Shown in pieces: positions 14,293-49,569 of a stretch of DNA of 64,000 nt. Each line of letters opens with the position of its first letter. Within the stretch, counting starts at the first letter, position 1. The position numbers were made by a program, and so were the translations under genes. This DNA is from Naegleria gruberi (taxonomy: Eukaryota): assembly GCA_000004985.1 (NCBI GenBank), contig GG738848.1; one strand, written 5' to 3'. Under the pieces are notes generated by a model, which worked only from the letters and a program-made list of their open reading frames with translations, was not told the DNA's origin and searched no databases.

Positions 14293-17200
14293 TTAATTAA
14301 AGGTTGTTTCCAGATTTTGATTATCAGCAGCAATCAAATCAGTTTGCAATTCGTCTGATTCTGCTCCATGTTTCAAAAATTCATCCAGGACATATTGTTG
14401 CTCAGCTTTGGAAATGTTAGATTTAGCATGATGCTTGGCACTCAAAAAGTAGCTTTGGGTTGGTTTTCCTTTAATCTCAATCTTCCTCTCCTCAAATTCA
14501 AAATCCAAATCATACACTCTCTCATAAGTTGATCTTGATAAATGAATCCTTCCAGGTTGAGAATTTGATTCCATTCTGGATCCAACATTAATAGTTTCCT
14601 AGAATGACATGTTTAAATATCAACAATACAGTATTGAAATACTTACACCCCACAAATCATATGCAAATTTCTTGGTGCTATTATTTGTTAATATTTAAAT
14701 TTCTAGAAACACTTACCCAATCACTCCAGCAATTGCAGCTCCAGTATTGATACCCACACGAATATCTACTTGATTAAAGTCAGAACTGGAAAAGGTATTT
14801 GCTTGAACTAATTCTTTCATTTTGGAAAGATTGAATTCTCTAATGACACTAAAAGTTTCAATACTAAATCTGAGTACTCTTTCTGGGTGATCACTAGCTT
14901 GCATCTATTAAATTATTATTAGAATTAAAAGAAGAAATGAATTATATACATACCAATCCTCCAACACAGAAATATCTAAATATTCAAATCCATAGAATTA
15001 ATGTCATAAACTAGAGTCTCGAATTTACTTACGCATCTCCAATAGTTTTAATCTTTTCCAATTCATACTTGTCAGTCAATTTATCGAATCCTGTAACAAT
15101 TGTACTCAACATTTGAACAACATCATTGGCACTAAGTGAGCTAGATAATTTAGTAAATCCAACCATGTCACTGAAAAAGCAAGTGATATCAGGCAACTTG
15201 TCAGCAATTAATTTCTCTCCCTAAAATAGATTAGATATTGATAAATATAAATAAATGTAATACTTACACTTTTCAATTGTCTGGCAACAGATTCTGGTAA
15301 CACGTTTCTCAGTAACTTTTCAGAATTCTTCTTCTCTTCAGCTAATAATGATTTTGACTTGTTTTCAGATGTGATATCTCTTATGAAACAGGTAATGACT
15401 CTGTTATTATCGAATAGAGTGTAGGAAATGCTCACTCTAGCTGGGAAAGTAGTCCCGTTCTTTCTTATACATTCCAAATCTAAAGTTTCTCCCTGAATGG
15501 CATTCTTTTCTGAGGCTAGTGAAGAATCTACTTGAACTCTATTTTCAATCAACTTTTTAATTGTTTCCTCACAATTTGGATTGAAGAGAGACCACAATGG
15601 TTTTCCAATTACATCCTCAGGCAATTTACCAAACATTCTTTGGGCTGCAGGATTGTAAACTTCAATATCATAATCATTACATGATACTGCTCCATCTACA
15701 GCAGAATTAAGAATGGACTTGACCTTTAAATCTTCAACCTCCTTCTTATTGAGACTGTTCGCGCCTCTAGAGGAGGAAAATATCTTGTGGTATAGAACAT
15801 AATTTCTCATTTCATCCTTTGCTTCCAAATGATCAATCTTGATATAGTTCAGCAACATTCTCACAGTTTGAACCTCATTAACATGTTTGTCAAAGGAGAG
15901 GACAAGTAAATAGCCAAACAGTGGAACTAAAAAAAATCCAATAACTCCAAATATTGTTACAATAGTAGAACTGTTATCTCTTTCTATGGAACTAACGTAA
16001 ATATTCATAAATTGTTCGAATTCCTTTGCCAACACTTTACAATCAGTGAAAAGTGCATGGAACTCTGGGAATATACTGTACATGTCCTTGTTCTTAGCAT
16101 TGTGCTTTTCATTGATAATAATTGATTCCAGATAGAGTTCATTCATCTTATCATTCAAGCTTGTACACTTCATGGTAGTCGAATTTGAATTTTCACAGTG
16201 AGCTCCCTTGATGAGATTGTCAACCTCAGAAAATAACCCAATTAGTGGCGCAGCATTGGTTGTAATATCGCCATACAATAGCAAATTCCACTCCTTACTA
16301 ATCTTCTTCTTGATTTCATAAACTGATTCATGATATTCAACAACTTCATCCATTGAAAGTAATTTCTTAGAGTTGATTGAATATGTATCGTACGGAAGAA
16401 CAGAAAATATTAAAACCTCTCCAACTTTCCCTGTAATATCATGAGCATCTACTGAGATTGATGCAGAACGTTCCACATTTCTCATAATTCTCTCAGTTTT
16501 ATCAGAGGTAACAAAAACTTCATAAAAGAACATGGAAAAACACAAACAAGTAGTAATGAAAATAAGAGTTGTAAATAACGATGCTCTAAACTTGGGATTG
16601 TTGGTAAAGTTGGATTTGTATGCTCCCTCTCCATTCTCTGCATATTTCGTAGCCATTTGGTGGTAGATCTTTCCAAGAGCATCTTTAGGAATTGTCTTTT
16701 CAACGAGTTTTAACACGGATTTCAAAGATCTCATTATCAACAAGTTGAATATCAACATTAGACCACAAGATATTACTAGTAATCCCAAAGAGCAGAAATA
16801 AAAGTACATGAAAGCATTATTGGTATTACTGACAGTGGCATAGGATCTATCTACAATGTTTGAGCAAAACTCTTTGAATACTGAACTGAAAATATCTCTA
16901 TTGTGCCAAAAATACATGGCTTTGTAATTGGAGAGAGTATTGTTATACTGCTGAGGTGTATAGGTATTGATTTCCTTTAAAAATTGTATCAAAGTGTTGG
17001 TGATTGCTGAAATGGAAGTGTTAAATTGATGTGCAACAGTGTATTCTCCTGGGTATGGACCAATAACAGGATTATAGAAAAGGACACTACTCTCTGAATA
17101 ATCATGAAACATGTCATCACTCATTAAGTCATTCAGAGCGCTGTTTTGAAGCTCCTGTAATGAAGCTAATACATCTCGAATTCTTTCTTTGTGCTCAGTT

Positions 17201-19668
17201 GAAAAGTTGGCCGCTCCTGCATCAATAAGAGATTGAGGCATCATCTGTACTGCATTGTTATTATATAAAGTGAATAGTAATTGCTCCATTCTTATGTCTA
17301 ATTGCATACTCAATGTGGTAATAGAAGGCATACAGGATATTTTGATTAATTTCACATCACTTGTTGAGTTTACCAATAAGGCGATGGAGAAGGAAAAACC
17401 AATAATAAACAATAAGAAAAACAGAGCTATAGAGGATATAATGCAAGAGTAGGTAAACTTATTGTCAGAAGGAGTGGCAAGAGCTGATCTGTACAACATT
17501 TCCTTTTTCAATTGTGGATCTTCTGCAGCTTCCAATCCCATTTTGTCACCAAAATCTTCCTCAACAAATTCTTTTGAATAACCATTTTCCAATCCGTCAA
17601 TCTTTGGTTTTGTAGAGTTTTTTTCCATATTTTTGATTTTAGAAGAGAGTGAGGCTGCACTCTTGGAAATTGATGATCTACTGTCTATTGAAGATCTTGA
17701 ATCATCGTGTGTGGCCCTCTCTTTCAAAGGTACTACCTTATTTCGCATGGAACCTTTTACACCACCAACTGGAGCTTTTGAAATTCGTATCTCTCCTTTT
17801 ACAGTTTCTTCATTCTCAATATCATTGGCTTCCTGATACAATTCTCCTGCTCTCAAATTGTTAAAAAGAATGTTATCAAGGAATTTGCCATACATTCTTA
17901 GAACATTCTTGTCATTACTGAAATCTTTCATCAGATTTTCAAAGGTATTCTCAGTATTAAAGGTCAATTCTGTGATTTTTCTGTTAATTTCCATAACCTT
18001 ACCGTAATTGATTTCCATATTGAAAAATTCCTTCCAAATAGCTTTGTGAAGAGCTAGAATGGAATTGTATTGCTTTTCCAGCTTGGCAAGGATGTGTTTC
18101 ACGTCAACAATACTCATTCCATGTGAAGAATCACTGTTTCTTGATTTGTGGAGTGAAGTTTCAATTTCTTTCAATCTTTCTCTCAAAGTTATTCCTGAGA
18201 AGAAATTCAATTTTTGTTGTTTAACTCTTCTCAATAATCCCAAAGCATATTCATGTGAACCTTCTTCCCAAATGTAAGAAGCTATCAAAGCTGATGAAAT
18301 AATCAATTCTGGTTCTGCAAATGATTTGTGTTGAGCAACTGATTTGATGAATGAAACCGCCAATTGTCTATCACTAATATTATATGCATTTGGCGATGCC
18401 TTCTTACCAGAAAACATTGCAAACTTTAAAAATAGTCCAAGTCTATTCAGTCTCTTTTGCTCCACAAAAGATTTGAAGAGAGAATGACCTCCCCGCTCAA
18501 AATATGTCAATACTGACATTCCAGACCTATCATCAATAGATTTTTCATAACAATCATTCAATAGCATCAACATTTCCTTTCTGATTGAATAATAGAAAAA
18601 CCGTGTGTATGCCTCCATCAAAACAAATCCCCCTAGAAAGCCAATAATCATCAGACCTACTGGAATGAAAGTAAAACCAAGTCCCATATCCCATGAATCA
18701 TTTGAATTTAAAAGAAATGCAATCATTGACCCTATTGGTGAAAGTACCTTTGCAAACAAAACTCCACTCCAAATTGAATTTTCCATTCTCACAAAATAAG
18801 GCAAAAAGTAAAACAAGCAGGGAGCTATGGTTATGGATAACACAATATGAAGCACTGATCTTCCATACATGTACTGATTTGGAATTACATAATTCAATAA
18901 AATTTGCAATTGACTAATTGATAAAAACATGGAAAAGAAGAATGGTGATTCCATTATAAATGGTGATGTGTTTTTCAAATGAGTATTTCCTAATATTTGT
19001 CCATAAATAATAGTATTAACAATAGAAATCAAGATACCAATAATTCCAATAACCATCAAAACAATAGAAGCAACTGATTGGCACATTACAGATGGAGCTC
19101 TCATCAATACATTCTGAGGGTCATCATAATTCTCAAATGACATTTGTGTGGTATAGTCACAATCGAGAAAGGATGTCATTGCAAAAGTACCAATCAAACA
19201 CACAAAGAATTGAATATTTCCATAGTAAAATATACAATTTCTCAATAGTTTCATATTTCTACTTGCAATTTCAACAGATTTAGCTGTCAAGACAAAAATC
19301 ACAAGTCCCAAAATTGAAAAGCAAACAAACAAAACCTCAAAAGCAATTAACCCCTCATAAGGAACCTTATCAATTGACAAGGTTATCAAATAATTAAAAA
19401 CTCTCCAAATCCAATCGCCATATTCTCCCCAATGAAATGAACCCAACATTCCAATTCCCAACGAGGCCAAAATTACATAAACATTCAAGACAACAAAATA
19501 AATGTAATTCTTCATTCCCTTCCGAGGAGTTTTATCTTCAATTGAGACAATCATTGAGAAGATACTCTCCTTCAATTTTATAAGACTCTCCCTTCTTGAA
19601 GTATAACTCGATGAAGAGGAGGTAACTGAGGTATTGGCAGAAGAGCCCATATAGTTACTTTCAGCCAT
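14293..19668 (-). CDS. Polytopic membrane PAS-domain class III adenylyl cyclase, paralogue A (~1740 aa). Exons on the complement: 19668..15268, 15220..15033, 14975..14954, 14904..14717, 14677..14647, 14598..14293
   Basis: Exon 1 is 4.4 kb and has an N-terminal block of about 10 TM helices plus further TM segments. The PAS domain reads VDGAVSCNDYDIEVYNPAAQRMF...RKNGTTFPARVSISYTLF. The cyclase domain is split over five small exons with GTAAGT/GTATGT donors and 47-57-nt introns. It contains FFSDMVGFT, EKIKTIGDA|YFCVGGL, GINTGAAIAGVIG, KKFAYDLWG and ETINVGSRMES. Lys before TIGD and Asp in YDLWG are the adenylyl-cyclase specificity pair. Both metal-binding Asp residues and the Asn/Arg transition-state pair are present. 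Confidence 0.85.
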
Positions 19669-25610: not shown

Positions 25611-26002
25611 TTATAATAGTAATTTCGGATTAGTTTTTATAATATAGTATTCAACAATTTCATTTCAATTTTCTGTATATACAACCTCATTGTATAACAC
25701 AACATTACCCATTGTGTGGGGAGCATATCGAACGATTCGATATCAAGAACTCTTGTGTCAATAAAAAATATTTAATTAATAATGAATTGCTCTCTCTCGC
25801 TCGCTCAAATGCTCAAGAAGTAACATCCTCGCACTTTCTCACTCGAAAATTTCAATTGAATCAAATTATTCTTATTATTGAATTATTCCAAAATATTTGT
25901 TTGAATCAATTTCATAGTATTTGTTTGTTTGGTCAAGACTTTATGTTCTCGCAAAAAGTAGAACTCCATCAATTTACTTCTTTAAAACTTTTGTTAAAAA
26001 AA

Positions 26003-28093
26003 ATGCCAAGAACAAACCCAGGTGCTCAAAAAAAGAGATCCAACTCTGCCATTGACTTGACCGAAGAAGATGAAGTTGTCCAAATCTCAGACGAAGAGGA
26101 AGAAGTTATAAAAAAGAGGAATGAAAGGCTACTTCAAAAACAAAGGGAAGCCATGATTAGATACGAACGAGCACAATCAGAGACTAGTTTCAATGAGGAA
26201 TTTACTCAGATAGCCTCTGAATTGTACACTCTCACAAAACACAATGAAAGTATGGAAACTCTCATCACACAAATTGATAGATTAAATATTAAAGATCCCA
26301 TGGAAGAAACGGAAAAATCAAAGATTGATTTATTGGCAGAGCAAATCATTAAACAGAGTGATGATATTGTTAGTTTTAATGTTTCCGGACAAGTATTTAC
26401 CACAACAAAAGGAACCATAAGAAGAGAGAAGGAATCATTCTTGACAGTCTTGATTGATGAAAATTCACATCTTCCATTCGACACGGATGAGTCTGGTGCT
26501 TTTATTATTGAAAGAAGTGCCTTGTTGTTTTCCTATATTTTGAAATATTTGCAAAATTTGGATGAATTTACAGGTGAATTTGATATTGATATTTTACCAA
26601 AGGAAAAGACTGTGTTGAATGCATTGTTAGAAGAGGCTAAATTCTTCAGTCTTTCCAATTTGATAGAAGTTCTAGATAAGAACAACTCTGCTCAAATGTT
26701 GGAGGGTAGATCAGCTGCTAGACTTGTGGATGTTTGGAATTATGGAAATATTGTACGTGATGCTGTTGTGAGTGATGAATATTTGGATCAAATCAAGGAA
26801 AGAGTTCAAAGGCGTAAGGAGCAATTGAATCAACAACGAGAAATGATCAAGAATTTGGTAGAAAATCAACAGAAAAAACAAGTTGAAACCAGAAGAAATG
26901 AATTAGAATCAAAATTAGCTCAAATCAGACAAGATTTAGGAAAAGTTGATTCCTTGACAGTTTTCTTTTCAATTAGTGGAACAATATTTGAAATGGATAT
27001 CTTTCAAGTTTTCAAATTCAAAGAGTCCTTGCTTTGTAAGATTGTTCAAAAATATAACATACCAATTCAAGAAACAAAATCTCGTCCAATTTTCATTGAT
27101 AGAGAACCTGAACAATTCACACACATCAAATATTTTATTGAGAATGAGTGTCTTTCAGAGGATTTATTGTATGGTCGTTCTTATAACAAGAAGGCCCTTC
27201 TCAAGGAGGCTGCTTTTTATAACATTACAGATTTGGTGAAATATTTAGATCCAGTTTACAGATTCCCAATTGAAGAGCTTGGATCACATAACGTCGTCAT
27301 GAAAAGAGAGGAAGACCTACTGAGATCATACTTTGCTACAAATAGAGATCATCCATTGCTGAGCGATCCTTATTTACATTTAATTAATGTATTCGACAAT
27401 TTGGATACTTTCAAAAAACAGCCATTCCCTGATCGTGGAAACATTTTATTCAAACAGTATTCTGATCATTTATTTGTTGAATCCAGAGAGGAGTTTGAAT
27501 TTAACTTTAATTGTTTTACGAAAGGAATTTTTAATGGTATGTAATATTGATAATACTTTAAAAATTAATAGAAATGTTAAGGCATGGATTGGAATGGAGT
27601 TATTATGGCAGGCGGTAGTGTGCTAGCTTGTTTATCATCTGTTCCTGCTGAATCATTTAGAACAACTCAGAAACCAACTTTTTACCTTGATAACCGAAAA
27701 AAGAAGACTCAACTCGAGGATTTAATCCCCAACAATCTTATTGAACCAACTGCAGAAAAGGAAGCAAACTTGCCACATTCTGCTTATTACAAGGCAAGTG
27801 ATATCAAGATGGATTTATTGGGAAAGTCATATTTTTACAATAGAGCAGACACTCATCCATTTGCTGATTCAGATATCGATATATTCCTTTATGGACTTTC
27901 TGAAGAGGAGGCAGAAAGTAAAATCAGACATATTTACGAAACAATTAAGAAGAATACCAAATCAAATATTGTTGTCATGAGGTCATCCATGACAATCACG
28001 ATGCAAGTATGTGATTTTAGACCCGTACAAATTATTTTGAGATTGTACAAGAGCCCTTCTGAGGTATTGATTGGATTTGACGTTGATTGTTGT
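26003..28093 (+). CDS. Tandem BTB/POZ (KCTD/T1-type) domain protein. Exons 26003..27536 and 27582..28093. Further 3' exons unresolved
   Basis: Two T1/BTB-like blocks are present: VSFNVSGQVFTTTKGTI...LKYLQNLDEF and VFFSISGTIFEMDIF...IKYFIENE. A 45-nt GTATGT...TTAAG intron joins in frame to GMDWNGVIMAGGS.... A GTAAGT donor follows DVDCC at 28094. Confidence 0.55.
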
Positions 28094-29678: not shown

Positions 29679-32066
29679 ATGGAAACAATCGGCTTTAAAT
29701 TATTAAACAAACAAAAGAAAAATCACAAACCATCTGTAATAGTTTCGAATACTTCCGAGAGACAAATGCCACACCAAAAGCAAACACTGGATTCATCGTT
29801 TTATTCATCAACAGATTCTTCATGCAATATCATGAATGAATCGGCAACTAACTATGAAGATTATCAGTTTAGTTTCGAAAAATTGTACAGAGAAAAAGAA
29901 ACTAGATTATTAATGAAGGAATACATGGAGATGGGTAAGTAATTAGTTTCTTCATCAACCAACAATTATTTTGAAATCTTCTTGTTTTAAATCTGAACGT
30001 TGTGATTGCGACACATTCATACAAATTTGGTAATCGTCTACTTTGGTGAAAATTGTGGATTTTTTGTTCTGTGGCCATGATTAGAAATGCACTCACCTGA
30101 GAGCTTTAAATTCTTGGACAACATTGAATCCTTAAAGCATTCCTGTCAAAATATTCCATCCTCATCGACACAACAATTGATTGACCAATTTCTTGATCAA
30201 ACTTTCTCAATAATTGAAACATTTATTCTACCTCAATCAGAAATGGAAGTGAATATAGGAAGAAAGGAGAAGGAAGTTGTCATGTTGAAATACAAACAAC
30301 TCCAGAGTCAATGGTCAGAAAGTTCTTCAGCAATTCTTGAACCTGTCAAAATTTGGGAGATTTTTGAAGAAGCAAGAATTGTAATAATGACAGAATTGAA
30401 ACAGGACGTATTTCCAAGATTTATCAGATCTCAAAGGTTTATTAGCTTTATACAGACTCATGATAAGGAGTTCCTTGATAAGATTGGTTTGAATCTTGGT
30501 AGAAGAATTTCAGATACAGTTTCAGTTTCTTCAGACGAATCAAGTGGAAATTCCACTACTCAAAGAAAGAAAGTAACAGTAGATTATAGTGTCAGACCTG
30601 AATTTTATTGGAAAAATTATCAAGCAGATGCTTCAATTCATAACATTACTCAACAAGATGTCAAATTTGTTAACTCATTGACATTAGACAGCAATATTTG
30701 GCAATTATTTAAAGTTGGTGACAAGAAAAAGGGAGAATACTTTGCCAGTTTCGTTTCCAAACAGAAACTCTCAGTTTTCAAACCTGATTCCACAACAGAA
30801 CGACAAGTCAACCCTCAGAAATTATACAAATTCACAGGTGTCATTAATCATTCCTTAGAAGAATTGTTATTCACACTGACAAACCCTGCCTACATGATGG
30901 ATTACGACAATCAACTCAGTGTCGTTGAACAACTTGATTATCTCAATGGATTTGATTATTCTAGCTCAATTTCAGTTCAAGGATCCTCAAGCGCATTTTG
31001 GGAAAATGAAAATTTTGATGATTCGAGTTCTGATGGTGGATTGAGTGTTGATTCACAAAGTAGTACTTCTCCAAAGGTATCTCATTCGGATGATAAGTTT
31101 AGTTCTTCCATTTGCTTGGAAACTTATCCTTTCGGATGGCCAATTTCGAATAGAGATTTTCTTGTAACTCAATCACTTATATACGAAGCTAAAACTCAAC
31201 GATATATTTTGGTAAAAAAGTCAATTTCTCATCCAAATTATCCAAAGAGAAAGGGAACTACTCGTGGATTCATTGTTGGTGGATGGACCATTCAGAGAGT
31301 GACTGAAAATCAAACAAGATTTTGTTTCGTCAGCTTTACTGATATGGATTTAAACGAAAGGGTGTTTAATCAACTTTGTAAAAAGAAGGGAAAACGTTTA
31401 TTTGATGGATTGAATCAAACTCTGGATAGAAATTCTGAAAATGGTTTTCTTAGACCTTTATTCTCATGTGGATTATTGGAAACTTTGGAAGATTTCTTGA
31501 AATTCTACAAATTACCTGAAACTATTCTCAACGAAACTCAAGTCCAAGTATTGAAAAAGCAAAAGAGCGACAAATTCAAGAGTTTCGAAATTGATGGCTC
31601 ACTCGTTCGATTAATCTACGTTTCCAGATATGACGAATCCAAACTTTCTTCCAAAGATTTCGACCAAATCAATCAAGTTTCCAATAGAAACAACCAACCA
31701 CTGAACTTGAGTGGTATCCTTCTCAGTGGTCAAGGCGTTTTCTATCAAGTCCTCGAAGGAGATCCAAAATTCATTTATCCAACCTATGAAAGAATCAAAA
31801 AAGATTCGAGACATTTCGATGTTTGGTGTGTGAGTGAGGAAAGTGGAGTTAAGGAATGTGAAAGACAGTTTTCTAATTGGGCCATGAAATGTGTTGATTT
31901 GGTGAATAGTGATCATTATTTGGCTCAGTTTATGAGAAATATAATCGAAACCTTGTCGAAACTTTCAAAAGCTTCAAGAGATTCGACTAATTGGGATGAA
32001 GAAAATCATGCACTTGATGTGCTCTATCAAGCTTCCAAACAATTGAATGATTCCAGTAAGAATTAA
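29679..32066 (+). CDS. RGS domain, START/Bet v1-like region and C-terminal BLUF (blue-light FAD sensor) domain protein. Exons 29679..29934 and 30085..32066
   Basis: The RGS end motif is IWEIFEEARIVIMTELKQDVFPRFIRSQRFISFI. The C-terminal BLUF domain reads LVRLIYVSRYD...DFDQINQVSNRNNQPLNLSGILLSGQGVFYQVLEGDPKFIYPTYERIKKDSRHFDVWCV...FSNWAMK. The conserved Tyr, Asn, Gln, RH and Trp/Met all align with AppA/BlrB BLUF. The upstream 85-codon exon joins via GTAAGT...TTAG in frame. Confidence 0.8.
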
Positions 32067-34243: not shown

Positions 34244-34855
34244 TTAATATTTCAAAAATACTCCGAAAGGGAACGCTAATAGGGATAATAATGCAACATG
34301 TCTTTTAGCATTATCCCTTCCAATCACACTCAAATATAAAATTACAATACAAATCAACTCTATCGATGCAATAAACCATCCAAACATGCAAAACCAAACA
34401 AAATTACTCAAAATCATTAATAAACTCGTCTTTTCTCTCATAAACATTTGATCTTTGATAAATCCAATCGATCGTTCCTCAATTGACTTGTATTTTCTGT
34501 AGGGTTTCGATTTCTTTACGTTGAATAGAAGAAACTTGGCAATTTTCATCAATTGTAACGAACAAGGTAAACAAATCAATAGACAAGATAATATCCAACA
34601 CACAGAACACAAACCAAAAAAGATGAATGTAATAAATCCTAATCCTAAACTCAACCATCGACAATCCACTTGTGCATCTTGTTTTTGATGTTCTTCTTGT
34701 TGTTGTTGTTCTTTTTCTGACGATGGTTGAGGATCTTTTGTGTGATATTCAATGGTGGTGGACATTTCCTGCAATTCAATCTTGTCTTCATCAACATCCA
34801 TCTCCGAAGAAGAGGCATGTTGATCAACGTGAGCTGTATCTGATGATGCGGCCAT
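34244..34855 (-). CDS. Small multi-pass membrane protein (203 aa), function unknown
   Basis: Acidic Gln/Glu-rich N-terminus followed by 3-4 hydrophobic helices. ORF only. Confidence 0.4.
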   Translation of the reverse strand: MAASSDTAHVDQHASSSEMDVDEDKIELQEMSTTIEYHTKDPQPSSEKEQQQQEEHQKQDAQVDCRWLSLGLGFITFIFFGLCSVCWILSCLLICLPCSLQLMKIAKFLLFNVKKSKPYRKYKSIEERSIGFIKDQMFMREKTSLLMILSNFVWFCMFGWFIASIELICIVILYLSVIGRDNAKRHVALLSLLAFPFGVFLKY

Positions 34856-34973: not shown

Positions 34974-37900
34974 CTAGAGTCGTAATGAATCTTCATCATC
35001 GACTCGTTCTGCATTTTCAGAATGTTCTGAGGGTTCTGATTCGAGCATTCCCATTTCCATTCTCATGTTTTTCACGAGCATTGTTTCATCTTCTTCATTG
35101 AGGCGTGCTCTCAAGTGGTACATGTCATTGAGTAGGTAACCAAGCATGGATCCTTTTCCTTTAACTTCAAGCTTTCGTTCCTCAAATTCCATTTGTAAAT
35201 GTTTAACTCTTTCGTAGGTTGATTGTGATACTTGAATTCTTCCCTCCTCTGAATTTGATTCCATTCTTGAAGCAACATTGATGGTATCTCCCCATAGATC
35301 GAATGCAAACTTTTTGAAACCAATTACACCACCAACAACTTGACCAGTATTGATACCAATTCTGATTCATAATTGAAATTAATGAACAGTAATAAGAAAA
35401 CTAATAATTATTAACAAACTACTTACCTAACATTCAATTGTTGAGTAGAAATTGGTTTTGGATCATCTCTGCAAAATATTTGAAGAGCTTCTTTGTATCG
35501 ATTTGTGTTAATGTCTCTCACCACTGAGAAAGTTTCCATAGCAAATTGGAGAACAACTTCTGGGTGAGTCACTCCTCCATCCAATCCACCACAACAAAAG
35601 TAAGAATCACCTATAGTTTTGATCTTTTCTATATTGTACTTTTCAGTCAACTTATCAAATCCGTTCACAACATTTCCAAGTAACAAGACAACGTCTTGAG
35701 GGTTGAGAATAGAAGAAATTTCTGTAAATCCAATCATGTCCGTAAATAAACAAGTAATGTCAGGAAGCTTCTCTGCAATAAATGTTTCTCCCTAGTATTA
35801 TTATTATTATTATTAAATATTGAAAAACTAGTATAACAACTTACATTCATCAATCTTTGGGCAATCTTGGTTGGGAGAATATTTCTCAATAAATTTTCAG
35901 AAGTCTTTTTTTCTTCAGCAAGTGCAATTGCTTGCTTTCTCTCAAGTGTTATATCCTTAATGATAAATAAAAAAAAAACTTTCGAATCAATCATGGCCCA
36001 CGATATATTCACTTTGGCTGGAAAACATGATCCATTCTTCTTCACACAATCCAATTCTAAAGTTTCTCCTCTGATTGTAGTACTGGCTGTTATAGAAGTC
36101 ATGGCTTCAAAGATATTGCCAAGCTTTTCCTGACTTGCCGTATCAAATAAATTGAAAACAGACAAACCAACAACGTCATTGACATTTCTCAAGAATAAAA
36201 GTCTTGCTGCAGGGTTGTAAATCTCAATATCAAAATCACTGTTGCAGTACAACACTCCATCTACTGCAGTGTTGAAAATACTCTTTACCTTATCCTTTTC
36301 TTCTTCTTTTTGTTGTTGACTGCTCTTATTCTTCTTACTCTTATTTATCTGATTGTAGAGAACGAAGTCACGAATTTCATCTTTGGCATCCAAATATTCA
36401 ACTTTAACATAGTTCAACATCATTCTCAAAGTTTGAAATTCATTAAAGTGAGCATCAAGTGATAGGAACAATAAATATGCAGTGAATGGAATTGTTAGTA
36501 AACCAAGAACTCCAAATATAATGCTAACCAGAGACGACGTATTGTTTTGAAGTGCCTCAATATAAATATTCAAAAATATTTCAATATCATCAGTAAGCTG
36601 GCTACAAATTGAGTATATTCCTGTGTAAAATTCACTAAATGTTTTGAGAGGGTCTACTGTAGTTGTTCCAAATACTTGATTAACTATTGACAACTCAACC
36701 AAGAACAAATTCACCATATCATTCAAACTGGAACAGGCTGCATGAGAAGTTGAGGTTCTATTGGAGCAGTTTCCAGTACCGCTTATAATTTCATCAACCT
36801 CAGAAAACATGCCTATGAGTGGTTTTTCACCATTTTCCTTGTCTCCATATATCAGCTTGTTCCACAACACATTCAAATTCAACCCAATCTCACCAATGCC
36901 ATCGTGCAGTTTTACAAGATCTGCATTGGAAAGTAGTGCAGGGTTGTTTGCAGTGGTATTCGGAAGTAACTTGAATGTTATCAATTCCCCAATACTAAAC
37001 ACTCCTTTCTGTGCATAATTTGAAATTTTTACAGACTTGGCAATACTCTTCATAATTAATTCTGATTCTGAAGAAGTGCTGAAAGCCTCCAGGTAAAAAA
37101 TAGATACACAGAGTGCGGATAAAGCTATCAATAATATAGAGAGGAATGTGAAAGTATAGGATGGATTGCTAAGGTAATCAGATATTGAGCTGCCACTGTC
37201 GACTGATTCTTGATTTTTGGTTGTCAATTGTTGGTAGAGTTTGATAATAACATCTTTTGGAATGTTCCTCTCCACCAGTTTGATTGCTTGTTTAAGTGAA
37301 CGCACAACTACGAAAAACATAACAATAGAAAATGCAAACACCATTAACATTGCAATCAGGCAAGATATGTAGAAATATCTAAATATCAATTCCGTTTCAT
37401 AAACAGTGGCATAATTTCTATCAACAATGTGTAAGCAGTATTGTTGGTAATTTTGAAGAATGGTATCTCTATTGAGCCACAAGTACATGAACTTAAAGTT
37501 GGTAACTGTGGCATTAAACTCTTCAAGACCGTACTTTTTGAATTCTCTTGCTATTTGAATTAGAAGATTAGTGTTGAGGGCAATTGAGGAATTAGATACA
37601 TCTACACCAGTAAATTCGTCATTATTAGTATCTAAAATATGTGGAATGTTAAACGTATGGCTGTCTGAAGAATAATCATGGAAAATATCATTAGTAAAGG
37701 AGCCATCAAGAGCCATTTCCTCTAAAACTTTGAGACCGTGAATAACTTTGTCCAATCTTTCCTTGTGAATATGGTTGTAGCTAGTGTAGTTGTAAATTCC
37801 TTTTGCTTCCAAAGATAAAGTACTAAGTTTTGTGTTGCCATCAATAGTTGCCAAGACTTGAAACATTTGCTCTATTCTATTTTCAATCAATAAATATGAA

Positions 37901-40242
37901 ATATCAACACTAGGAAGACAATTAGCAATAATTGTAGGCATATCTTTTGTGGAAGCCACAAGAGCATAATATCCAAATCCAAAACAAGCAACAAATGTTA
38001 AAAAAGAAACTACTACAAATATCAGTACCACTATATACGTTGCCTTGTTATCCCCTGAGGTAGCCAAGGCCATTCTGAACAGACCCTCCTTCCTTACTTC
38101 TGGATCTTCTGAAGCTTCATTAATCAAGTTCAATATTTCAGGAGTCTCTTCCGTCATTTCTTTTGTGGTAGAGTTTTCTGCAGTAAGTTTGTTAGTGCTC
38201 TCCATGACAGACTTTCTAAATGATATGAGTTTTGATGCTGTTGACATGGAAGACAAGGGGCTTTTGGCATTAGAGGGAACAGTTGATGCTGGGCTTTTCA
38301 CTGGTGATGAGATGGTTCCTATTACTTTTCCTTCCTTCCTTTCTTCTTCATCTTCAATCTCATTGGCTTCTTGATACAACTCTTGAGCTCTGATATTGTT
38401 AAATATTACCAGTTCAAGAAATCGTGCATATAATCTTAGAACTGATTTATCGCCACCAAAATCTTTCATCAAATTCTCAAAGGTTATTTCTGACTCAACA
38501 GTTAGTTGGGTAATTCTTCTGTTGATTGTAATAACAGTACCAAAATTGACCATTTCATTGGTCATTTCCTTCCAAAGCGCTTTGTGCCAAGATAGGATTG
38601 TATGGTGTTGTCTTTCCAAGTTGGCTAAAATATGCTTCACATCCACAAAACTAATACCAGAACCTTCACCTGATTTTTTGTGCAGTAAGGTTTCCATTTC
38701 TTTCAATTTTTCTTTCAAAATAAATTCTGTTATAATATTGAGTTTGTGTCTCTTGATTTTCTTCAATAAAGCGAGAGAATATTCATAACAGTTGGTGCCT
38801 TCATTCCAGAAATAAGCGGTTGTCATTGCTGCAGCAACGATATTTTCAGGATAGGAGAAGGAACGATGTTGAGCCACTCCTTTGATGAATGAGATGCAAA
38901 TCTCATTGTCACTTAGACCCAAAGCATCATTTAAAAGTTTCGTCTTTCTACTTGATAATCTAAAGAAAATGTATAATTGTCTAATTCTTTTTTGATCTTC
39001 CAATTCCTTGAAGAAAGAGTAACTTTCTCTTTCAAATAAATGCCTCAATTCTGATATTTGTTCCTCGCTGGCAGTATATTCGACTCCATTTTCCAAAAGT
39101 TTTACCAATGAATTCTCCAAGCAACCAATGAAACCCCTCCTTATGGAATAATATGATACACCAAGATAAATGGTCATTGCTGCAAAACCAATAAAAAATC
39201 CAATTATTGCCAGTCCAATTGATGTACTAATCATTCCTAGTCCAATTTCTAAATCTTGTTTTTGATTAATGAAAGAGGAAATGAGAGGACCTAAACTTGT
39301 ACCAATTTTAGAAAAGACAATACCACTCATAAAACCATTCTCTGATAGAGAATAGTGAGGTATGAGGAAGAAAATAGATGGAACCAAAGTTGTAGAGAGA
39401 ACAATATGAACTATAGCCCTCACAAATACCATATCATTTGGAATAGCATACATGACAATTACTTGCAACTGAGATGTTGCCATAAAGTGAGCAATAAAGA
39501 ATGGACTCTCTGAAATGAATACAGATTTGCTTTTGAGATGGGTATTTGTAATGATGAGATTATACATTGCAGTTACTGGTACCAGTACAACTGCCATAAC
39601 AATACAAGTAACCAAAAGTGCAATATTAGTTGGTGAGTAGCACATTTTGGTTGGAAATCTAGAAAGAGCATACTGATCTATTGTGTATCCTTCAAAGAAC
39701 TTCTTTCCTGACACTCTATCACAATCCACAAATGATGTCAGCAAGTACGGTATTGTAAGATGACCAAAAAAGCAAGCAAAAGCAACAATCTTCAACAAGG
39801 TTCTAAAGGTTTTCATATTCCTACTAGCTGTCATGGCTGCCTTTGCAGTTGTAATAAACAAAACCAAAGCAGCAAGAATAAACACCATACAAACAACTGT
39901 TATTGCAATCATTGCCTCATACGTAATCAAATCTAAGGAAAAAGTAATTGGATAATTCAAAGCTTTTGAAATCCATAATCCATATTCTCCCCATCCATAA
40001 TCACCCATTACTGATATGCTAACGGCTCCATAACATGAATATAATACAACGAGCAAGTTGAGGATGAAATTCTTCCATGATTTCTGAGGTGCTTTGTCAG
40101 TCATGACAATTATTCTATTCAGCAAGGCATCCTTAACTTTGACAATATTCTGTCTCCTCGATAAATAACCTGAAGATGAGGAGGAGCTACTAGAATTATG
40201 AGAAGAACTCTGATAATCGGAGTGATGCCTAAAGTCAATCAT
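34974..40242 (-). CDS. Polytopic membrane PAS-domain class III adenylyl cyclase, paralogue B (~1750 aa). Exons on the complement: 40242..35845, 35791..35427, 35361..34974
   Basis: Same architecture as paralogue A: N-terminal TM block, internal TM segments, a PAS domain (VDGVLYCNSDFDIEIYNPAARLLF...KKNGSCFPAKVNISWAMI), then the cyclase. The cyclase motifs are LFTDMIGFT, EKIKTIGDSYFCCGGL, IGINTGQVVGGVIG, KKFAFDLWG and DTINVASRMES. Introns are 53 and 65 nt with GTAAGT donors. It lacks the two micro-exons of copy A. Confidence 0.85.
35796..35815. repeat. (TTA)6 microsatellite inside intron 1 of cyclase paralogue B
   Basis: tattattattattattatta. Confidence 0.9.
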
Positions 40243-45397: not shown

Positions 45398-47426
45398 ATG
45401 TTCAAGAAGATCAACACTCCACAACTCATCAACAAGACCGCTTCCACTGGTGCTCGTTTGTTCTCTACCAAGATGAACAAGCAAAGTGTCAAGAAGGTAC
45501 CAATGATCATCAATGGTGAAAAGAGAATTTCCCAATCCAAGGAATGGTACGAAATTCACAATCCAGCCACCAATGAAGTCATTGCTATGGTCCCACAATC
45601 AACTGATGCTGAAATGGCTGAAGCTGTTCAAAACTCAAAGCAAGCCTTTGGTGAATGGAGAGATTGGAGTGTTTCTCGTAGAGTTAGAGTCTTGTACAAA
45701 CTCAGACAAATGCTCGAAGATAATACTCAAGAATTGGCTCAAATGATCACTGAAGAACAAGGTAAAACTTTGAAGGATGCTGAAGGAGACATTTTCCGTG
45801 GTATTGAAGTTGTTGAACATGCCTGCAATATGTCTGTTCTCCAAATGGGTGATACTACTGAAAACATTGCCAAGCACATTGATATTTACAGTTATAAGCA
45901 ACCTTTGGGTGTTACTGCTGGTATTTGTCCATTCAACTTCCCGTAAGTGTTTTTATTCACCATGTGTTTTAATTCTTATTCTAATATCCAATGATGATGA
46001 TGATTTGTAAATTTTAAATTATTATAATTTAACGAATTGATGATGATCAAATATGCATTATGCAAACAATTAAAATGCATTATCAAATAATGATCTATCT
46101 GATGATGATCCTATTTCTATTTGGCTTGTTTGGTGATTCTTTCCCTTCATCATCATGACCAAATATATTTTCATCATGATGCTAACCGACAAAATATTGG
46201 ACCGATAATATTATCTCCTTGATGATTCACACTATTATCTATATTTGTGTATAATTATTATCCATCCAACAAACAATTATTTGTTGTTAAATAATAATAA
46301 TTTTAACACACACTTGTTGATCAACAACAAATTCACACAACAATCAATATCATCATCATCCTGCTTGTGAATACATAATAATAGAGCCATGATTCCATTG
46401 TGGATGTTCCCAATGGCTGTTGCTACTGGTAATACTATGGTTTTGAAGCCATCTGAACGTGACCCAACTACTGGTGTCAGAATTGTTGAAATGGCTTTGG
46501 AAGCTGGTTTGCCAAAGGGTGTTGTCAACGTTATTCATGGTAAGAAGCAAACTGTTGACTTTATCTGTGATGCTCCAGATATCAAGGCCATCTCATTCGT
46601 TGGTGGTAACACTGCTGGTGAATACATTTATGCTCGTGGTACTGGTAATGGTAAACGTGTCCAAGCTAACTTGGGTGCCAAGAATCATGCTGTCGTTTTG
46701 CCAGATGCTAGAAAGGAAGATACTATTAATGCCTTGTGTGGTGCTGCTTTTGGCGCTGCTGGTCAAAGATGTATGGCTTTAACTACTGCCATTTTGGTTG
46801 GTGAAGCTAAGGCATGGCTTCCAGAAATTGTTGCCAAGGCCAAGACTTATAAGGTTAATGTTGGTTCTGATCCAACTGCTGATGTTGGTCCATTGATTTC
46901 ACCTCAATCCAAGACTCGTGTTGAAAGCTTGATTGCTTCTGCTCAAAAGGAAGGTGCCAAGATTGATTTGGATGGTCGTGGTGTCGTTGTTAAGGGTTAT
47001 GAAACTGGTAACTTTGTTGGTCCAACCATCATTTCAGGTGTTAAGAATGTTCACACTTGTTATAAGGAAGAAATCTTTGGTCCAGTTATGCTCATCATGA
47101 CTGCTGAAAATTTGGATGAAGCTATTCAAATTATCAACTCTAATCCATACGGTAATGGTACTGCCATCTTTACTAGATCTGGTCCAGCTGCTCGTAAATT
47201 CCAATTCGAAGTTGATGCTGGTCAAATTGGTATTAACTTGCCAATTCCAGTTCCTCCACCATTCTTCTCATTCACTGGTTCAAGAGCTTCAATTAGAGGT
47301 GATTTGAACTTCTATGGTAAGGGTGCTGTTCAATTCTACACTCAAACTAAGACTATCATGTCTAACTGGAGAGAAGATGAAAGTGGTATGAGCTTTGGTA
47401 CTGTCATGCCAACTTATAAGAAGTAA
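45398..47426 (+). CDS. Methylmalonate-semialdehyde dehydrogenase (acylating), mitochondrial (ALDH6 family). Exons 45398..45942 and 46385..47426
   Basis: ICPFNFP|[27 protein letters not shown] spans the exon join. It is collinear with animal MMSDH, including the catalytic Cys in GQRCMAL and the Glu region. Phase-2 GTAAGT donor with a 442-nt intron. Mitochondrial presequence. Confidence 0.9.
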
Positions 47427-47598: not shown

Positions 47599-48510
47599 TT
47601 ATTTAAATAACACTGTTGGAAGTTCCTTTCGCACAGGTTGGAAATCGAGTGACAAGTTTGCGAATTTAGCACACACTCTTACAATTCGTTGATGTTTCCA
47701 AAGCGCGCCTCTGTATGTTTGCTTTAAAATTGCGAACTTTTTGATTCTTCCAATAATCTGTTCAACAACAACTCTTCCTTTACCTAAGACTTTGTTGTAA
47801 ATTTCGCTTTTTGCCGAAAGTTGTTCACCTTTTGGTGCTTTGTCAGGAGAAATACAAAATTCTGCGTTTTGATAAGCTTTGTCGCCTAATACTCTTTCAT
47901 TTTCAGAGAAATGCTCTTTGTTCGTTTGTAACCATTCATCCCACATCTTCTTATCGTGCTTTCTTCCTGGGAACGCATGCGAAATGTTTGCAATTTTTCC
48001 TGTTACTAAAGTAGTCACAACTTGATATTTGAGTGCATGCATTCTCTTTTTGTAAGAATAATACATTTTTTGCTTTTTCCACAAACCTCTTTTTTGCTCA
48101 CGTGACAACCCTTTCTTTTTTCTTCCTGAAGGGTTTTGAATCCTACATTCCATTCCATCAACAACAGCACGAACACGTTGAAAAACACCACTTGCGCCTT
48201 GATTTTCTTCTTTCAACCGTTCCTCTAACTTTAACTCAGGTAATTTTTCATCAACAATTTCTAAAGTTTTGTCAATATTTTCGAAATAACTTGATCTTGA
48301 TACATTCCAGTAAACATTATGAACCAAACTTTTAGGATAACAATTTAAATATTCCATAAAAATAAGAAACCACATTGGTTTAATATCATCAACTAAGTAA
48401 TCATCGTACACACGTTGTAGAATCCATGGCTTGAAGCCAAATGATGCAATAAATGACTTCACGTTGCCAACACGAAAACGAGCTTTGTACTCTTGAAATA
48501 AAGATCGCAT
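47599..48510 (-). CDS. Harbinger/PIF DDE_Tnp_4 transposase
   Basis: AVVDGMECRIQNP matches the first D. YYSYKKRMHALKYQVV...AFPGRKHDKKMW carries the second D in a PGxxHD motif. VLGDKAYQ is present, and the E lies in VVEQIIGRIKKFAILK. The likely start is the internal Met (MRSLFQEY); the tracked ORF runs to 48615. Confidence 0.8.
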   Translation of the reverse strand: MRSLFQEYKARFRVGNVKSFIASFGFKPWILQRVYDDYLVDDIKPMWFLIFMEYLNCYPKSLVHNVYWNVSRSSYFENIDKTLEIVDEKLPELKLEERLKEENQGASGVFQRVRAVVDGMECRIQNPSGRKKKGLSREQKRGLWKKQKMYYSYKKRMHALKYQVVTTLVTGKIANISHAFPGRKHDKKMWDEWLQTNKEHFSENERVLGDKAYQNAEFCISPDKAPKGEQLSAKSEIYNKVLGKGRVVVEQIIGRIKKFAILKQTYRGALWKHQRIVRVCAKFANLSLDFQPVRKELPTVLFK

Positions 48511-48573
48511 TTTTTCGAAAGTACTTTCGAAATTAATTTCGTTCACTTTCTCATTTTCGAAACTAAAAAAAAA

Positions 48574-49569
48574 ATGGCAAAGAAGAAACAAGCTGTAAAG
48601 GAACCATCTTCGCAAGAAGATGAAGAAGAAAAACCTAAGAAAGCAACCAAAAGATTTAGAGAAGAGGATTATGCTAAATTACAAAAGTATTACTCTGAAC
48701 ATTACGATACTAAAGAGGGAAATCAAGAAGATGTCTTCCGTTCGTTTGGCAAGTTGCATGGTTATTCCGTATCGCAAGTTCAACGTGCACATTACAGAAA
48801 ACAAAAAAAAAGTAATAACAAAAAGAAGAAAAGCAAAACTTCTGATAATGTAGAAAAACAAGAATTTGAGGACAGATTCACAATTTATGCACAAGAAATG
48901 GATGATGAAGAAAATAAGAAGAAGAAAAGAAAAACCGACACCAATCATGAACCGAAAGCAGATGATGAAGATAGCGAACATTCATACGAGACTGAGTCAT
49001 ATGAAACCGATTATTTATCCGATGAAATGATTGTGCGCACACCTTCGAAATTAACAAAAACAGTCAATATCAACGATGAGACAACATCTTTATTTCGTCC
49101 CTACAGATTCGAAAACGCTTCCTATTGTTTTTTTGTCTACAGATACCCAACTTGGACCTCTTTTCTGTTCGATGGTATTGACATGTCAAAGAAAGTGAAG
49201 ACATTTTCCATCATTGTTACAATTCATTCAAGCATTGACAAGAAAGTAATTTCTGATTCTTTCCCGAATTTCGCAAGTGGTTTGGTAGAATTAACTGAAA
49301 GAAAGGATGAAAAATTCACAATTTACGAACCGATTCCGAAAGGTGTTGATGTTAAATCTGTGAAAAGTGGTCTATTCGAATTGCAATTACTAATTGGTGA
49401 TAACAGAGTGTTCATGGTGTTCTTTGAAAAGAAAGTACAAAAGTTCCAACCATCCACAAGTCAAGCTGAGTTTTCGAAATTCTTACTCTCTTCCGGGATG
49501 GCACCAGTTTCTGCCAGAAGTAACACTTTCAGTGCGCCAACACAAGACAAGAAGGATTCTCAAAAGTGA
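48574..49569 (+). CDS. Harbinger-associated Myb/SANT-like DNA-binding protein
   Basis: The N-terminal basic region with KRFREEDYAKLQKYYSEHY...SVSQVQRAHYRKQKK is Myb/SANT/MADF-like. Its position, divergent from the transposase inside the TIRs, is typical of Harbinger. Confidence 0.6.
   Translation: MAKKKQAVKEPSSQEDEEEKPKKATKRFREEDYAKLQKYYSEHYDTKEGNQEDVFRSFGKLHGYSVSQVQRAHYRKQKKSNNKKKKSKTSDNVEKQEFEDRFTIYAQEMDDEENKKKKRKTDTNHEPKADDEDSEHSYETESYETDYLSDEMIVRTPSKLTKTVNINDETTSLFRPYRFENASYCFFVYRYPTWTSFLFDGIDMSKKVKTFSIIVTIHSSIDKKVISDSFPNFASGLVELTERKDEKFTIYEPIPKGVDVKSVKSGLFELQLLIGDNRVFMVFFEKKVQKFQPSTSQAEFSKFLLSSGMAPVSARSNTFSAPTQDKKDSQK

What the first reader, a model, noticed from the sequence alone, without database searches (positions are those of the whole stretch)
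34974..40242. Second PAS-adenylyl cyclase paralogue (copy B) with a different intron layout
Copy B has the same domain order and about 40-50% identity by eye to copy A (for example ALATSGDNKATY against ALATPSDNKFTY, and the conserved blocks AQHRSF.YPE and FENLMKDF). Its cyclase domain is split by only two introns, against five in copy A, and it lacks A's 22-nt and 31-nt micro-exons. Both copies lie on the same strand about 15 kb apart with unrelated genes between them. This looks like an old duplication followed by intron gain or loss.
Basis: partly seen in the sequence, partly recalled or inferred. Interest (0 to 1): 0.6.

Follow-up and report, generated by a model that had tools for sequence, protein, structure and literature searches.

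The report
Second Naegleria receptor adenylyl cyclase paralogue
This is a real, intact second copy of a large membrane-receptor adenylyl cyclase gene of the amoeba Naegleria gruberi; it belongs to a big, already catalogued Naegleria gene family, and its introns do differ from its neighbour's, which is mildly interesting for how introns come and go.

Summary
The window is Naegleria gruberi NEG-M. On the minus strand, 34974-40242 holds a 3-exon gene (copy B, 1716 aa). Copy A, a 6-exon paralogue of 1711 aa, lies at 14293-19668. The two are collinear over their full length and 42% identical, and synonymous sites are saturated. Both encode a TmcB-like multi-pass membrane module with TPR repeats, then two extracellular four-helix-bundle-like sensor domains, a PAS domain and a class IIIa cyclase. 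All six catalytic residues are present, with the Lys/Asp pair that specifies ATP. B has two introns (53 and 65 nt). A has five (39-57 nt), which create exons of 22 and 31 nt. Only the first intron is shared; it is also present in the closest N. fowleri gene (FDP41_003313), which has no other cyclase intron. B's second intron matches no intron of A.

Across 11 family genes, 18 of 26 intron positions fall in the cyclase domain, and several are shared by distant paralogues. A's last intron is one of those. This points to differential loss from an intron-rich ancestral cyclase module, plus some private gains. The splicing is inferred from homology, not from RNA.

This is an ordinary member of an expanded, known family. 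Interest is low to moderate.

The parts
34974..40242 (-). Copy B gene, from ATG to stop: 3 exons, 1716 aa.
   Evidence: ORF list and sequence. The spliced model has a single terminal stop.
35845..40242 (-). B exon 1 (4398 nt, aa 1-1466): membrane module, TPR, two sensor loops, PAS and the cyclase transducer helix.
35792..35844 (-). B intron 1: 53 nt, phase 0, GTAAGT..TAG, 15% GC. Same position and phase as A intron 1 and as intron 2 of N. fowleri FDP41_003313.
   Evidence: Read-through gives a frameshift and a stop.
35427..35791 (-). B exon 2 (365 nt): first half of the cyclase domain (GETFIAEK...QQLNV).
35362..35426 (-). B intron 2: 65 nt, phase 2, GTAAGT..CAG, 20% GC. It lies inside the Arg codon of NVR/IGINTG. 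The position is unique among the 11 mapped family genes.
34974..35361 (-). B exon 3 (388 nt including the TAG): second half of the cyclase domain and the acidic tail.
39091..40080 (-). B aa ~55-384: N-terminal membrane module of about 7 helices (TmcB-like). It has no specific match among solved structures.
38338..38661 (-). B aa 528-635: TPR_TmcB repeats (PF25474). This is the best-conserved N-terminal block (57% identity with A).
36358..38085 (-). B aa 720-1295: four TM helices enclosing two extracytoplasmic helical-bundle domains of about 200 aa (aa ~756-961 and ~1052-1240). The second carries an invariant Cys pair (aa 1159 and 1170).
35947..36261 (-). B aa 1328-1432: PAS domain (PAS_9). No LOV-type NCRFL cysteine motif.
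   Evidence: sequence inspection
35127..35773 (-). B aa 1473-1666: class III cyclase catalytic domain (genomic span includes intron 2). Catalytic residues: D (LFTDMIGFT), D and K (KIKTIGDSY), D (FDLWG), N and R (TINVASRM).
   Evidence: Alignment to adenylyl cyclase 9 C1 and C2.
14293..19668 (-). Copy A gene (comparison partner): 6 exons, 1711 aa. Exons 19668-15268, 15220-15033, 14975-14954, 14904-14717, 14677-14647 and 14598-14293.
14954..14975 (-). A micro-exon of 22 nt, encoding (A)YFCVGGL. It aligns with B's YFCCGGL.
14647..14677 (-). A micro-exon of 31 nt, encoding (G)TKKFAYDLWG. It aligns with B's FKKFAFDLWG.

Best explanation
Copy B is an intact, selectively maintained gene of Naegleria gruberi NEG-M for a receptor-type, homodimeric class IIIa adenylyl cyclase. 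Its predicted order is as follows. First comes an N-terminal TmcB-like module of about 7 membrane helices, followed by cytosolic TPR repeats. Then come four more membrane helices that display two extracellular four-helix-bundle-like sensor domains. Then a cytosolic PAS domain, the LLRNILP..IA..L transducer helix, and the catalytic domain. Inferred mechanism: a signal received by the extracellular bundles and/or by the PAS domain passes through the transducer helix to a dimer of catalytic domains, which make cAMP from ATP. B and copy A, 15 kb away, arose by a duplication dating to about the split between the N. gruberi and N. fowleri lineages. Both copies have since been kept under purifying selection, and the sensor loops have diverged most. 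The different intron layouts come from intron turnover in a cyclase module that was already intron-rich in the family ancestor. The phase-0 intron just before the catalytic domain is inherited by A, B and the N. fowleri co-orthologue. A kept at least one older intron (DLWG|E), and probably a second (after GGL), that B and the N. fowleri gene lost. B's own second intron, and A's introns 2 and 4, are private and are most simply later gains. Shown here: sequence, domains, catalytic residues, paralogy, intron positions as predicted from homology, and family context. Inferred: splicing in vivo, membrane topology, ligand sensing, and the direction of each intron change.
Against: No transcript evidence was available for either copy, so the micro-exons and the 39-nt intron of A are predictions. 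Neither A nor B was found in the protein collections, although neighbouring N. gruberi proteins were. The public gene models therefore could not be compared. The order of A, B and Nf_003313 is not robust. From residue ~1320 onward, A-B is the least similar pair, and shared-derived characters are equivocal: AB 11, BN 12, AN 6 in the N-terminal part, and 4, 4, 2 in the C-terminal part. With (A,B) as sisters, loss of A-type introns must have happened twice. Shared positions could reflect insertion hot spots rather than ancestry, since positions cluster in two short motifs (two-window p ~0.015). The four-helix-bundle similarity is a generic fold match with under 12% identity and no Pfam hit. No ligand, cofactor or enzyme activity was tested.
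Confidence: 0.75

Rival explanations
1. Gain-dominated history. After the duplication, copy A acquired three or four new short introns within about 250 nt of its cyclase exon, creating the 22- and 31-nt exons, and B acquired one. B and the N. fowleri gene show the ancestral, intron-poor state of this subfamily.
For: With the NJ topology ((A,B),Nf_003313), the outgroup Nf_003313 and B both lack A's four extra introns. A's introns 2 and 4 and B's intron 2 occur in none of the 11 mapped genes. Intron positions cluster in two motifs, as expected for insertion hot spots. The next relative, Ng_72081, is probably intronless: a metagenome ORF call of identical length sits in its 90% cluster.
Against: A's intron 5 coincides exactly in position and phase with an intron of a distant paralogue. 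Four other positions are also shared by non-orthologous genes, far more than random independent gains would give. No trace of a gain mechanism was found. Introns show no similarity to their flanking exons and no repeated, introner-like sequence in the window. Several adjacent introns can be lost in one event.
Confidence: 0.3
2. The duplication predates the N. gruberi / N. fowleri split. B is the orthologue of N. fowleri FDP41_003313, and A's orthologue was lost in N. fowleri. One loss of cyclase introns in the B/Nf ancestor explains both intron-poor genes. The A-B similarity in the N-terminal 4 kb would come from ancient gene conversion between the neighbouring copies.
For: In the PAS domain, B groups with Nf_003313 (58% bootstrap). 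From residue ~1320 onward, A-B is the least similar pair. Shared-derived counts slightly favour or equal BN (12 against 11 for AB in the N-terminal part; 4 against 4 in the C-terminal part). The intron pattern then needs one loss event fewer.
Against: Full-length and N-terminal NJ trees give (A,B) at 97-100%, including with Dayhoff-6 recoding. In the cyclase domain, A rather than B is closest to Nf_003313 (77% against 68%). This fits faster evolution of B better than B/Nf orthology. dS is saturated throughout, so any gene conversion cannot be seen directly.
Confidence: 0.15
3. One copy is not functional as modelled. For example, A's cyclase region could be a decaying exon interrupted by insertions and not spliced as proposed, or B could be a pseudogene.
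For: There is no RNA evidence. A's intron 4 is only 39 nt. Exons of 22 and 31 nt are unusual. The N. gruberi average is 0.7 introns per gene and 203 nt per intron (PMC8296547).
Against: Both spliced CDSs are open for more than 1700 codons, and dN is far below the saturated dS. All six catalytic residues are kept in both copies. All seven interruptions have canonical GT..AG ends, a plausible YTAAY branch site by inspection, and restore motifs to the residue. RNA-seq-guided N. fowleri and N. lovaniensis models of the same family carry exons of 10, 30 and 38 nt and introns of 44-47 nt (PMC6831594).
Confidence: 0.04
4. The enzyme is a guanylyl cyclase, or a cyclase of mixed specificity, rather than an adenylyl cyclase.
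For: Pfam PF00211 does not distinguish the two activities. UniProt names for the N. fowleri homologues say 'guanylate cyclase domain-containing'.
Against: The specificity positions are Lys (KIKTIGD) and Asp (FDLWG), the adenine-selecting pair. They are not the Glu/Cys pair of guanylyl cyclases. They align with the C2 Lys and Asp of adenylyl cyclase 9.
Confidence: 0.05

Closest known systems
Naegleria TmcB-like / PAS / cyclase proteins, e.g. N. fowleri FDP41_003313 (XP_044562704.1), FDP41_011611, N. lovaniensis C9374_003576, N. gruberi NAEGRDRAFT_81665 and _72081
   Same: The same collinear architecture over about 1600-1800 aa: membrane module, TPR_TmcB, two sensor loops, PAS and cyclase. B is 37% identical to FDP41_003313 over its full length and shares the phase-0 intron before the catalytic domain.
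   Different: B is a separate paralogue, with no relative above 50% identity in the libraries. It has a private intron, and its PAS and cyclase part has evolved faster than in A or the N. fowleri gene. None of these proteins has been characterised experimentally, as far as I could find.
Class IIIa adenylyl cyclases with a transducer helix: mammalian membrane adenylyl cyclases (AC9, AC8, AC5) and mycobacterial Rv1625c/Cya
   Same: The catalytic domain is the best match among solved structures (E about 1e-49 to 1e-38). The LLRNILP..A..L helix precedes the domain, and all catalytic residues are conserved.
   Different: There is one catalytic domain per chain carrying both the C1-type and C2-type residues. 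That implies a homodimer with two active sites, as in Rv1625c, not the pseudo-heterodimer of mammalian enzymes. The membrane part is unrelated to the 6-TM anchors, and a PAS domain is inserted.
Bacterial (mostly cyanobacterial) PAS-cyclase proteins
   Same: The PAS plus cyclase module aligns over 64-98% of its length at 37-48% identity. These are the best hits outside Heterolobosea.
   Different: The bacterial proteins are 350-600 aa and often have receiver or GAF domains. They lack the TmcB-like receptor part. Whether the similarity reflects transfer or conservation was not tested.
Four-helix-bundle periplasmic sensor domains (4HB_MCP of Tar, Tsr and PcaY; NarX; the NIT domain of NasR)
   Different: Sequence identity is 5-12% and there is no Pfam hit. 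Helical bundles are a common fold, and here two of them sit in tandem in a eukaryotic protein. No ligand is known.
Dictyostelium TmcB/TmcC ('tiny macrocysts') proteins, source of Pfam PF25474 TPR_TmcB
   Same: The TPR block matches the Pfam model above its cut-off (60 bits against 27).
   Different: Only the TPR block was tested. Whether the membrane module is shared with the Dictyostelium proteins was not checked. TmcB is not known to me to carry PAS or cyclase domains (own knowledge, not tested).

Membership tests
Class III nucleotidyl cyclase (PF00211), adenylyl-specific, homodimeric type | The catalytic domain matches the family profile above the curated cut-off. | tested here: met
   B scores 168.7 bits and A scores 167.6 bits, against a cut-off of 21.9.
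Class III nucleotidyl cyclase (PF00211), adenylyl-specific, homodimeric type | Two metal-binding Asp residues, plus the transition-state Asn and Arg, all in one chain. | tested here: met
   B has LFTDMIGFT, TIGDSY and TINVASRM. A has FSDMVGFT, TIGDAY and TINVGSRM. These align with C1 and C2 of adenylyl cyclase 9.
Class III nucleotidyl cyclase (PF00211), adenylyl-specific, homodimeric type | Lys and Asp at the base-specifying positions (Glu and Cys in guanylyl cyclases). | tested here: met
   KIKTIGD and F(A/Y)DLWG in both copies.
Class III nucleotidyl cyclase (PF00211), adenylyl-specific, homodimeric type | Synthesis of cAMP by the protein. | not testable with these tools
   This needs an enzyme assay.
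Class IIIa subclass (cyclase transducer element) | A conserved helical element, LL.N(I/M)LP..(V/I)A..L, directly upstream of the catalytic domain. | tested here: met
   B has ENLLRNILPTKIAQRL and A has EKLLRNVLPESVARQL. B's element aligns with the adenylyl cyclase 9 segment LLRNIIPYHVAEQL. The motif definition is from my own knowledge of the literature.
PAS domain (PF13426 PAS_9) | Profile match above the cut-off. | tested here: met
   B scores 60.7 bits and A scores 66 bits, against a cut-off of 27.
LOV-type (flavin, blue-light) PAS | The conserved GxNCRFLQ cysteine motif. | tested here: not met
   No such motif in either PAS sequence, by inspection. The PAS ligand is therefore unknown.
Naegleria TmcB-PAS-cyclase receptor family | Full-length collinear similarity to named members, with the same domain order. 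| tested here: met
   blastp gives 37% identity over 1708 aa to FDP41_003313. The five query segments hit in order in about 45 representatives.
TmcB/TmcC family (PF25474 TPR_TmcB) | The TPR block matches the profile above the cut-off. | tested here: met
   B scores 60 bits and A scores 53 bits, against a cut-off of 27.
TmcB/TmcC family (PF25474 TPR_TmcB) | The membrane module is homologous to that of Dictyostelium TmcB. | not tested
4HB_MCP / NIT extracytoplasmic sensor domains | A four-helix bundle between two membrane helices, with sequence-profile membership. | tested here: inconclusive
   42.2% identity over 1679 residues, tblastn E = 0.0, loci 15.3 kb apart on the same strand.
   No RNA data are accessible. 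Support is by homology only.

The most novel reading that the evidence does not exclude
The cyclase-coding 3' end of this Naegleria receptor family is a site of ongoing intron turnover in an otherwise intron-poor genome. On this reading, copy A records a lineage-specific burst of 2-4 intron insertions within about 250 nt, and B records one. The insertions are targeted to two short motifs (GDAYFCVGGL and GTKKFAYDLWG) where other paralogues have independently acquired introns at neighbouring but different nucleotides. That would be a rare, datable case of recent spliceosomal intron gain, and of insertion hot spots, in Heterolobosea.
Probability: 0.25. Interest if true: 0.55.

Novelty: new member of a known kind. 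Interest (0 to 1): 0.3.

Why it matters
For the gene itself the significance is small. Naegleria is already known to carry about 80-100 cyclases, and N. fowleri and N. lovaniensis members with this architecture are annotated. B is one more uncharacterised receptor cyclase. Two points add modest value. First, the architecture can now be described concretely: a TmcB-like membrane module, two chemoreceptor-like extracellular bundles, a PAS domain and a homodimeric class IIIa cyclase. This gives a testable model for how a free-living amoeba couples external cues to cAMP. Second, the family is a compact natural experiment in intron evolution. There are 26 intron positions in 11 paralogues, and 18 of them lie in 12% of the coding length. 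Micro-exons go down to 10 nt. Presence or absence differs even between N. fowleri and N. lovaniensis orthologues. With transcript data and more Naegleria genomes, gain, loss and sliding could be separated.

Tried and rejected
- The first homologue search, with the full 1716-aa protein, was swamped by low-complexity words and returned only insect cyclases. It was uninformative.
The P450 ORF was not on record.
- Genomic loci for the N. gruberi paralogues P0135 and P0253 are not indexed. N. gruberi intron maps other than A and B could therefore not be made.
- Origin of introns by tandem duplication: local alignment of each intron to 100 nt of flanking exon is no better than for shuffled introns (p 0.13-0.98). 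Rejected.
- Introner or repeat origin: the introns have no other copy in the window beyond 11-16-nt AT-rich chance matches. Rejected within the window.
- Recent gene conversion between A and B: synonymous sites are saturated in every domain. Rejected.
- Replacement of A's cyclase domain by another clade's domain: A's cyclase is closest to Nf_003313 (77%), so it was not imported from the clades that share its intron positions. Not supported. A's PAS domain is oddly closer to the Nf_011611 clade (54%), and this is left open.
- A third copy or fragment in the window: none.
- PDB sequence search with exon 1: no hit.
- The afdb50 fold library was unavailable.
- Literature search for TmcB gave nothing useful.
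- The last homologue search was deliberately not spent. The exhaustive representative search had already shown that no closer relatives exist.


Full report
What is there. The window has about 33% GC. Four of its ORFs are identical to Naegleria gruberi NEG-M proteins EFC49150, EFC49153, EFC49297 and EFC49159, all from one 712,659-bp contig. The organism is therefore settled. An RGS-BLUF gene between the two copies fits this.

The flagged interval lies on the minus strand. It starts with a 1502-codon ORF from the ATG at 40242. Reading the 3' end and assembling exons gives copy B. Its exons are 40242-35845, 35791-35427 and 35361-34974, which encode 1716 aa with a single terminal stop. Its introns are 53 nt (phase 0) and 65 nt (phase 2).

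Copy A has exons 19668-15268, 15220-15033, 14975-14954, 14904-14717, 14677-14647 and 14598-14293, encoding 1711 aa.

All seven introns begin GTAAGT or GTATGT and end in AG. They are 14-26% GC. If retained, each would introduce a stop or a frameshift. Removing them restores conserved cyclase motifs residue for residue: YFCVGGL aligns with YFCCGGL, and TKKFAYDLWG with FKKFAFDLWG.

Paralogy. The global alignment is collinear and 42.2% identical over 1679 positions. Identity is highest in the TPR block (57%) and the cyclase domain (about 60%), and lowest in the first extracellular loop (29%). tblastn finds only these two copies in the window. Synonymous differences are saturated in every domain (pS 0.67-0.76) while dN is 0.34-0.60. 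The duplication is therefore old, both copies are under purifying selection, and there has been no recent gene conversion.

What the protein is. Pfam finds TPR_TmcB, PAS_9 and Guanylate_cyc in both copies. Hydropathy predicts about 7 membrane helices in the first 380 residues and four more at about 737-755, 962-980, 1033-1051 and 1241-1259.

The catalytic domain is closest to adenylyl cyclase 9 and to the mycobacterial Rv1625c-type Cya. Both copies keep the two metal-binding Asp residues, the Lys/Asp pair that selects adenine, and the Asn and Arg. They also keep the LLRN(I/V)LP..(I/V)A..L transducer helix. All of these lie in a single chain, so the enzyme should act as a homodimeric adenylyl cyclase. 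The PAS domain lacks the LOV cysteine motif, and its ligand is unknown.

Family context. An exhaustive profile-free search of 1.84 billion representatives with B's first 1200 residues found only 117 relatives. The best is 33% identical. About 45 of them carry the whole architecture. Every full-architecture member that has a name is from N. fowleri, N. lovaniensis or N. gruberi. The one named hit outside Naegleria is a chytrid protein that matches only the TPR block.

The PAS-cyclase module alone finds N. gruberi and Willaertia fragments at 51-56% identity, and then cyanobacterial PAS-cyclases at 37-48%. Published surveys already report about 81 or more cyclases in Naegleria (PMC9928731).

Neither A nor B, nor anything more than 50% identical to them, is in the protein collections, although their neighbours are. 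The order of the neighbours' accessions leaves slots that fit A and probably B (my inference). I therefore cannot tell whether they are unannotated or simply absent from the tools' libraries.

Intron comparison. Genomic loci were retrieved for nine N. fowleri and N. lovaniensis family genes. Exons were mapped by exact translation. The N. fowleri models are RNA-seq-guided BRAKER1 predictions (PMC6831594). On a common alignment:

- The phase-0 intron between the transducer helix and the catalytic domain is shared by A, B and Nf_003313, and by no other gene.
- Nf_003313 has no further C-terminal intron.
- B's intron 2 is unique.
- A's intron 5 (DLWG|E, phase 0) coincides exactly with an intron of the distant paralogue Nf_001627.
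- A's intron 3 lies 1 nt and 4 nt from introns of Nl_007051 and of Nf_011611/Nl_003576, next to an indel. This is compatible with one old intron whose splice sites shifted.
- A's introns 2 and 4 are unique.

Over the 11 genes there are 26 distinct positions, and 18 of them lie in the roughly 200-codon cyclase domain. Five fall within G^TKK|FAY^DL|WG|D and four within GD^AYFCVG^G^L|. The two-window clustering has p ~0.015 by simulation. Other members also have micro-exons of 10, 30 and 38 nt.

Five positions are shared by non-orthologous genes. If every occurrence were an independent gain at a random site, I expect about 0.3 coincident pairs and count 7 (my calculation). At least part of the pattern is therefore inheritance from an intron-rich ancestral cyclase module followed by differential loss, or else strong hot spots.

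No signature of a gain mechanism was found. For scale, N. gruberi averages 1.7 exons per gene and 203-nt introns (PMC8296547). A's five short introns in the last 15% of its CDS are atypical for the genome but typical for this family.

Timing. NJ trees put A, B and Nf_003313 together at 100% and A with B at 98-100%, also after Dayhoff recoding. The signal comes from the N-terminal 1300 residues. From about residue 1320 onward, A-B is the least similar pair: in the cyclase domain A-Nf is 77%, B-Nf 68% and A-B about 61%.

Shared-derived counts do not resolve the three: AB 11, BN 12 and AN 6 in the N-terminal part, and 4, 4 and 2 in the C-terminal part. Private changes in the C-terminal part number 37 in B, 21 in A and 10 in Nf. 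This fits faster evolution of both N. gruberi copies after duplication.

The duplication therefore dates to about the gruberi/fowleri split. If B were really the orthologue of the N. fowleri gene, a single loss of introns would explain both intron-poor genes.

Verdict. This is an old duplication of one member of a large Naegleria receptor-cyclase family. Exactly one intron is shared, at least one ancient intron is kept in A and lost in B, and each copy has private introns. All splicing is inferred from homology. The gene is an ordinary new member of a known kind. The family-wide concentration and turnover of introns in the cyclase domain is the only mildly unusual aspect.

Noticed in passing
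L002-L009 and window 14293-15268, 34974-35845: Intron positions in this family pile up in the cyclase domain: 18 of 26 positions in 12% of the CDS. Within it they cluster in two short motifs, with five different positions inside 11 codons around KKFAYDLWG. Annotated exons go down to 10 nt.
   Followed up: partly
L005 and L006 (N. fowleri contig VFQX01000027.1, 302613-309985 and 340737-347947): Two N. fowleri family genes lie about 35 kb apart, like A and B. They fall in different clades of the tree yet share a phase-1 intron in ERKVE^(V/L)KGKG and the local sequence. This may be gene conversion at the 3' end.
   Followed up: no
L003 6115-6173 versus L002: N. lovaniensis C9374_003576 has an intron (SRM|EST, phase 0) that its N. 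fowleri orthologue FDP41_011611 lacks. Intron presence therefore differs even between sister species. The same position is occupied in another N. lovaniensis paralogue.
   Followed up: no
window 30087-32066 (+): A 659-aa ORF between the two cyclase genes combines an RGS domain with a BLUF blue-light sensor domain. This combination is unusual in eukaryotes. The exact sequence was not found in the protein collection.
   Followed up: no
window 34974-36300 (B C-terminal module): Outside Heterolobosea, the best matches of the PAS plus cyclase module are cyanobacterial PAS-cyclases (37-48% identity over most of the module), ahead of any other eukaryote. An origin by transfer was not tested.
   Followed up: no
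window 14293-19668 and 34974-40242: Neither A nor B, nor any protein more than 50% identical to them, is in the 15-billion-protein collections, although six neighbouring N. gruberi gene products are. I cannot tell whether they are unannotated or absent from the libraries.
   Followed up: partly
window 15790-16400 (A PAS region, aa ~1310-1440): A's PAS domain is more similar to the Nf_011611/Nl_003576 clade (53-54%) than to B (44%) or to Nf_003313. This disagrees with the rest of the gene.
   Followed up: no
window 47599-48615 (-): This ORF has a DDE_Tnp_4 (Harbinger/PIF-type) transposase domain. A weak DDE_Tnp_4 gene also lies next to the intronless family member in N. fowleri (L007).
   Followed up: no
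window 34244-34855 (-): A small membrane-protein ORF (203 aa) with a YccF domain starts 119 nt downstream of B's stop, on the same strand.
   Followed up: no
window 25128-25610 (+) and 25712-27544 (+): An ORF fragment with part of a glutamine synthetase catalytic domain lies directly upstream of a BTB-domain ORF. It may be one spliced gene or a remnant.
   Followed up: no
window 45398-47426 (+): The annotated methylmalonate-semialdehyde dehydrogenase (EFC49157) maps with a single 442-nt intron. This is far longer than the 39-65-nt introns of the cyclase genes.
   Followed up: no
window 89-160 (-): A tRNA-Met (CAT) gene.
   Followed up: no
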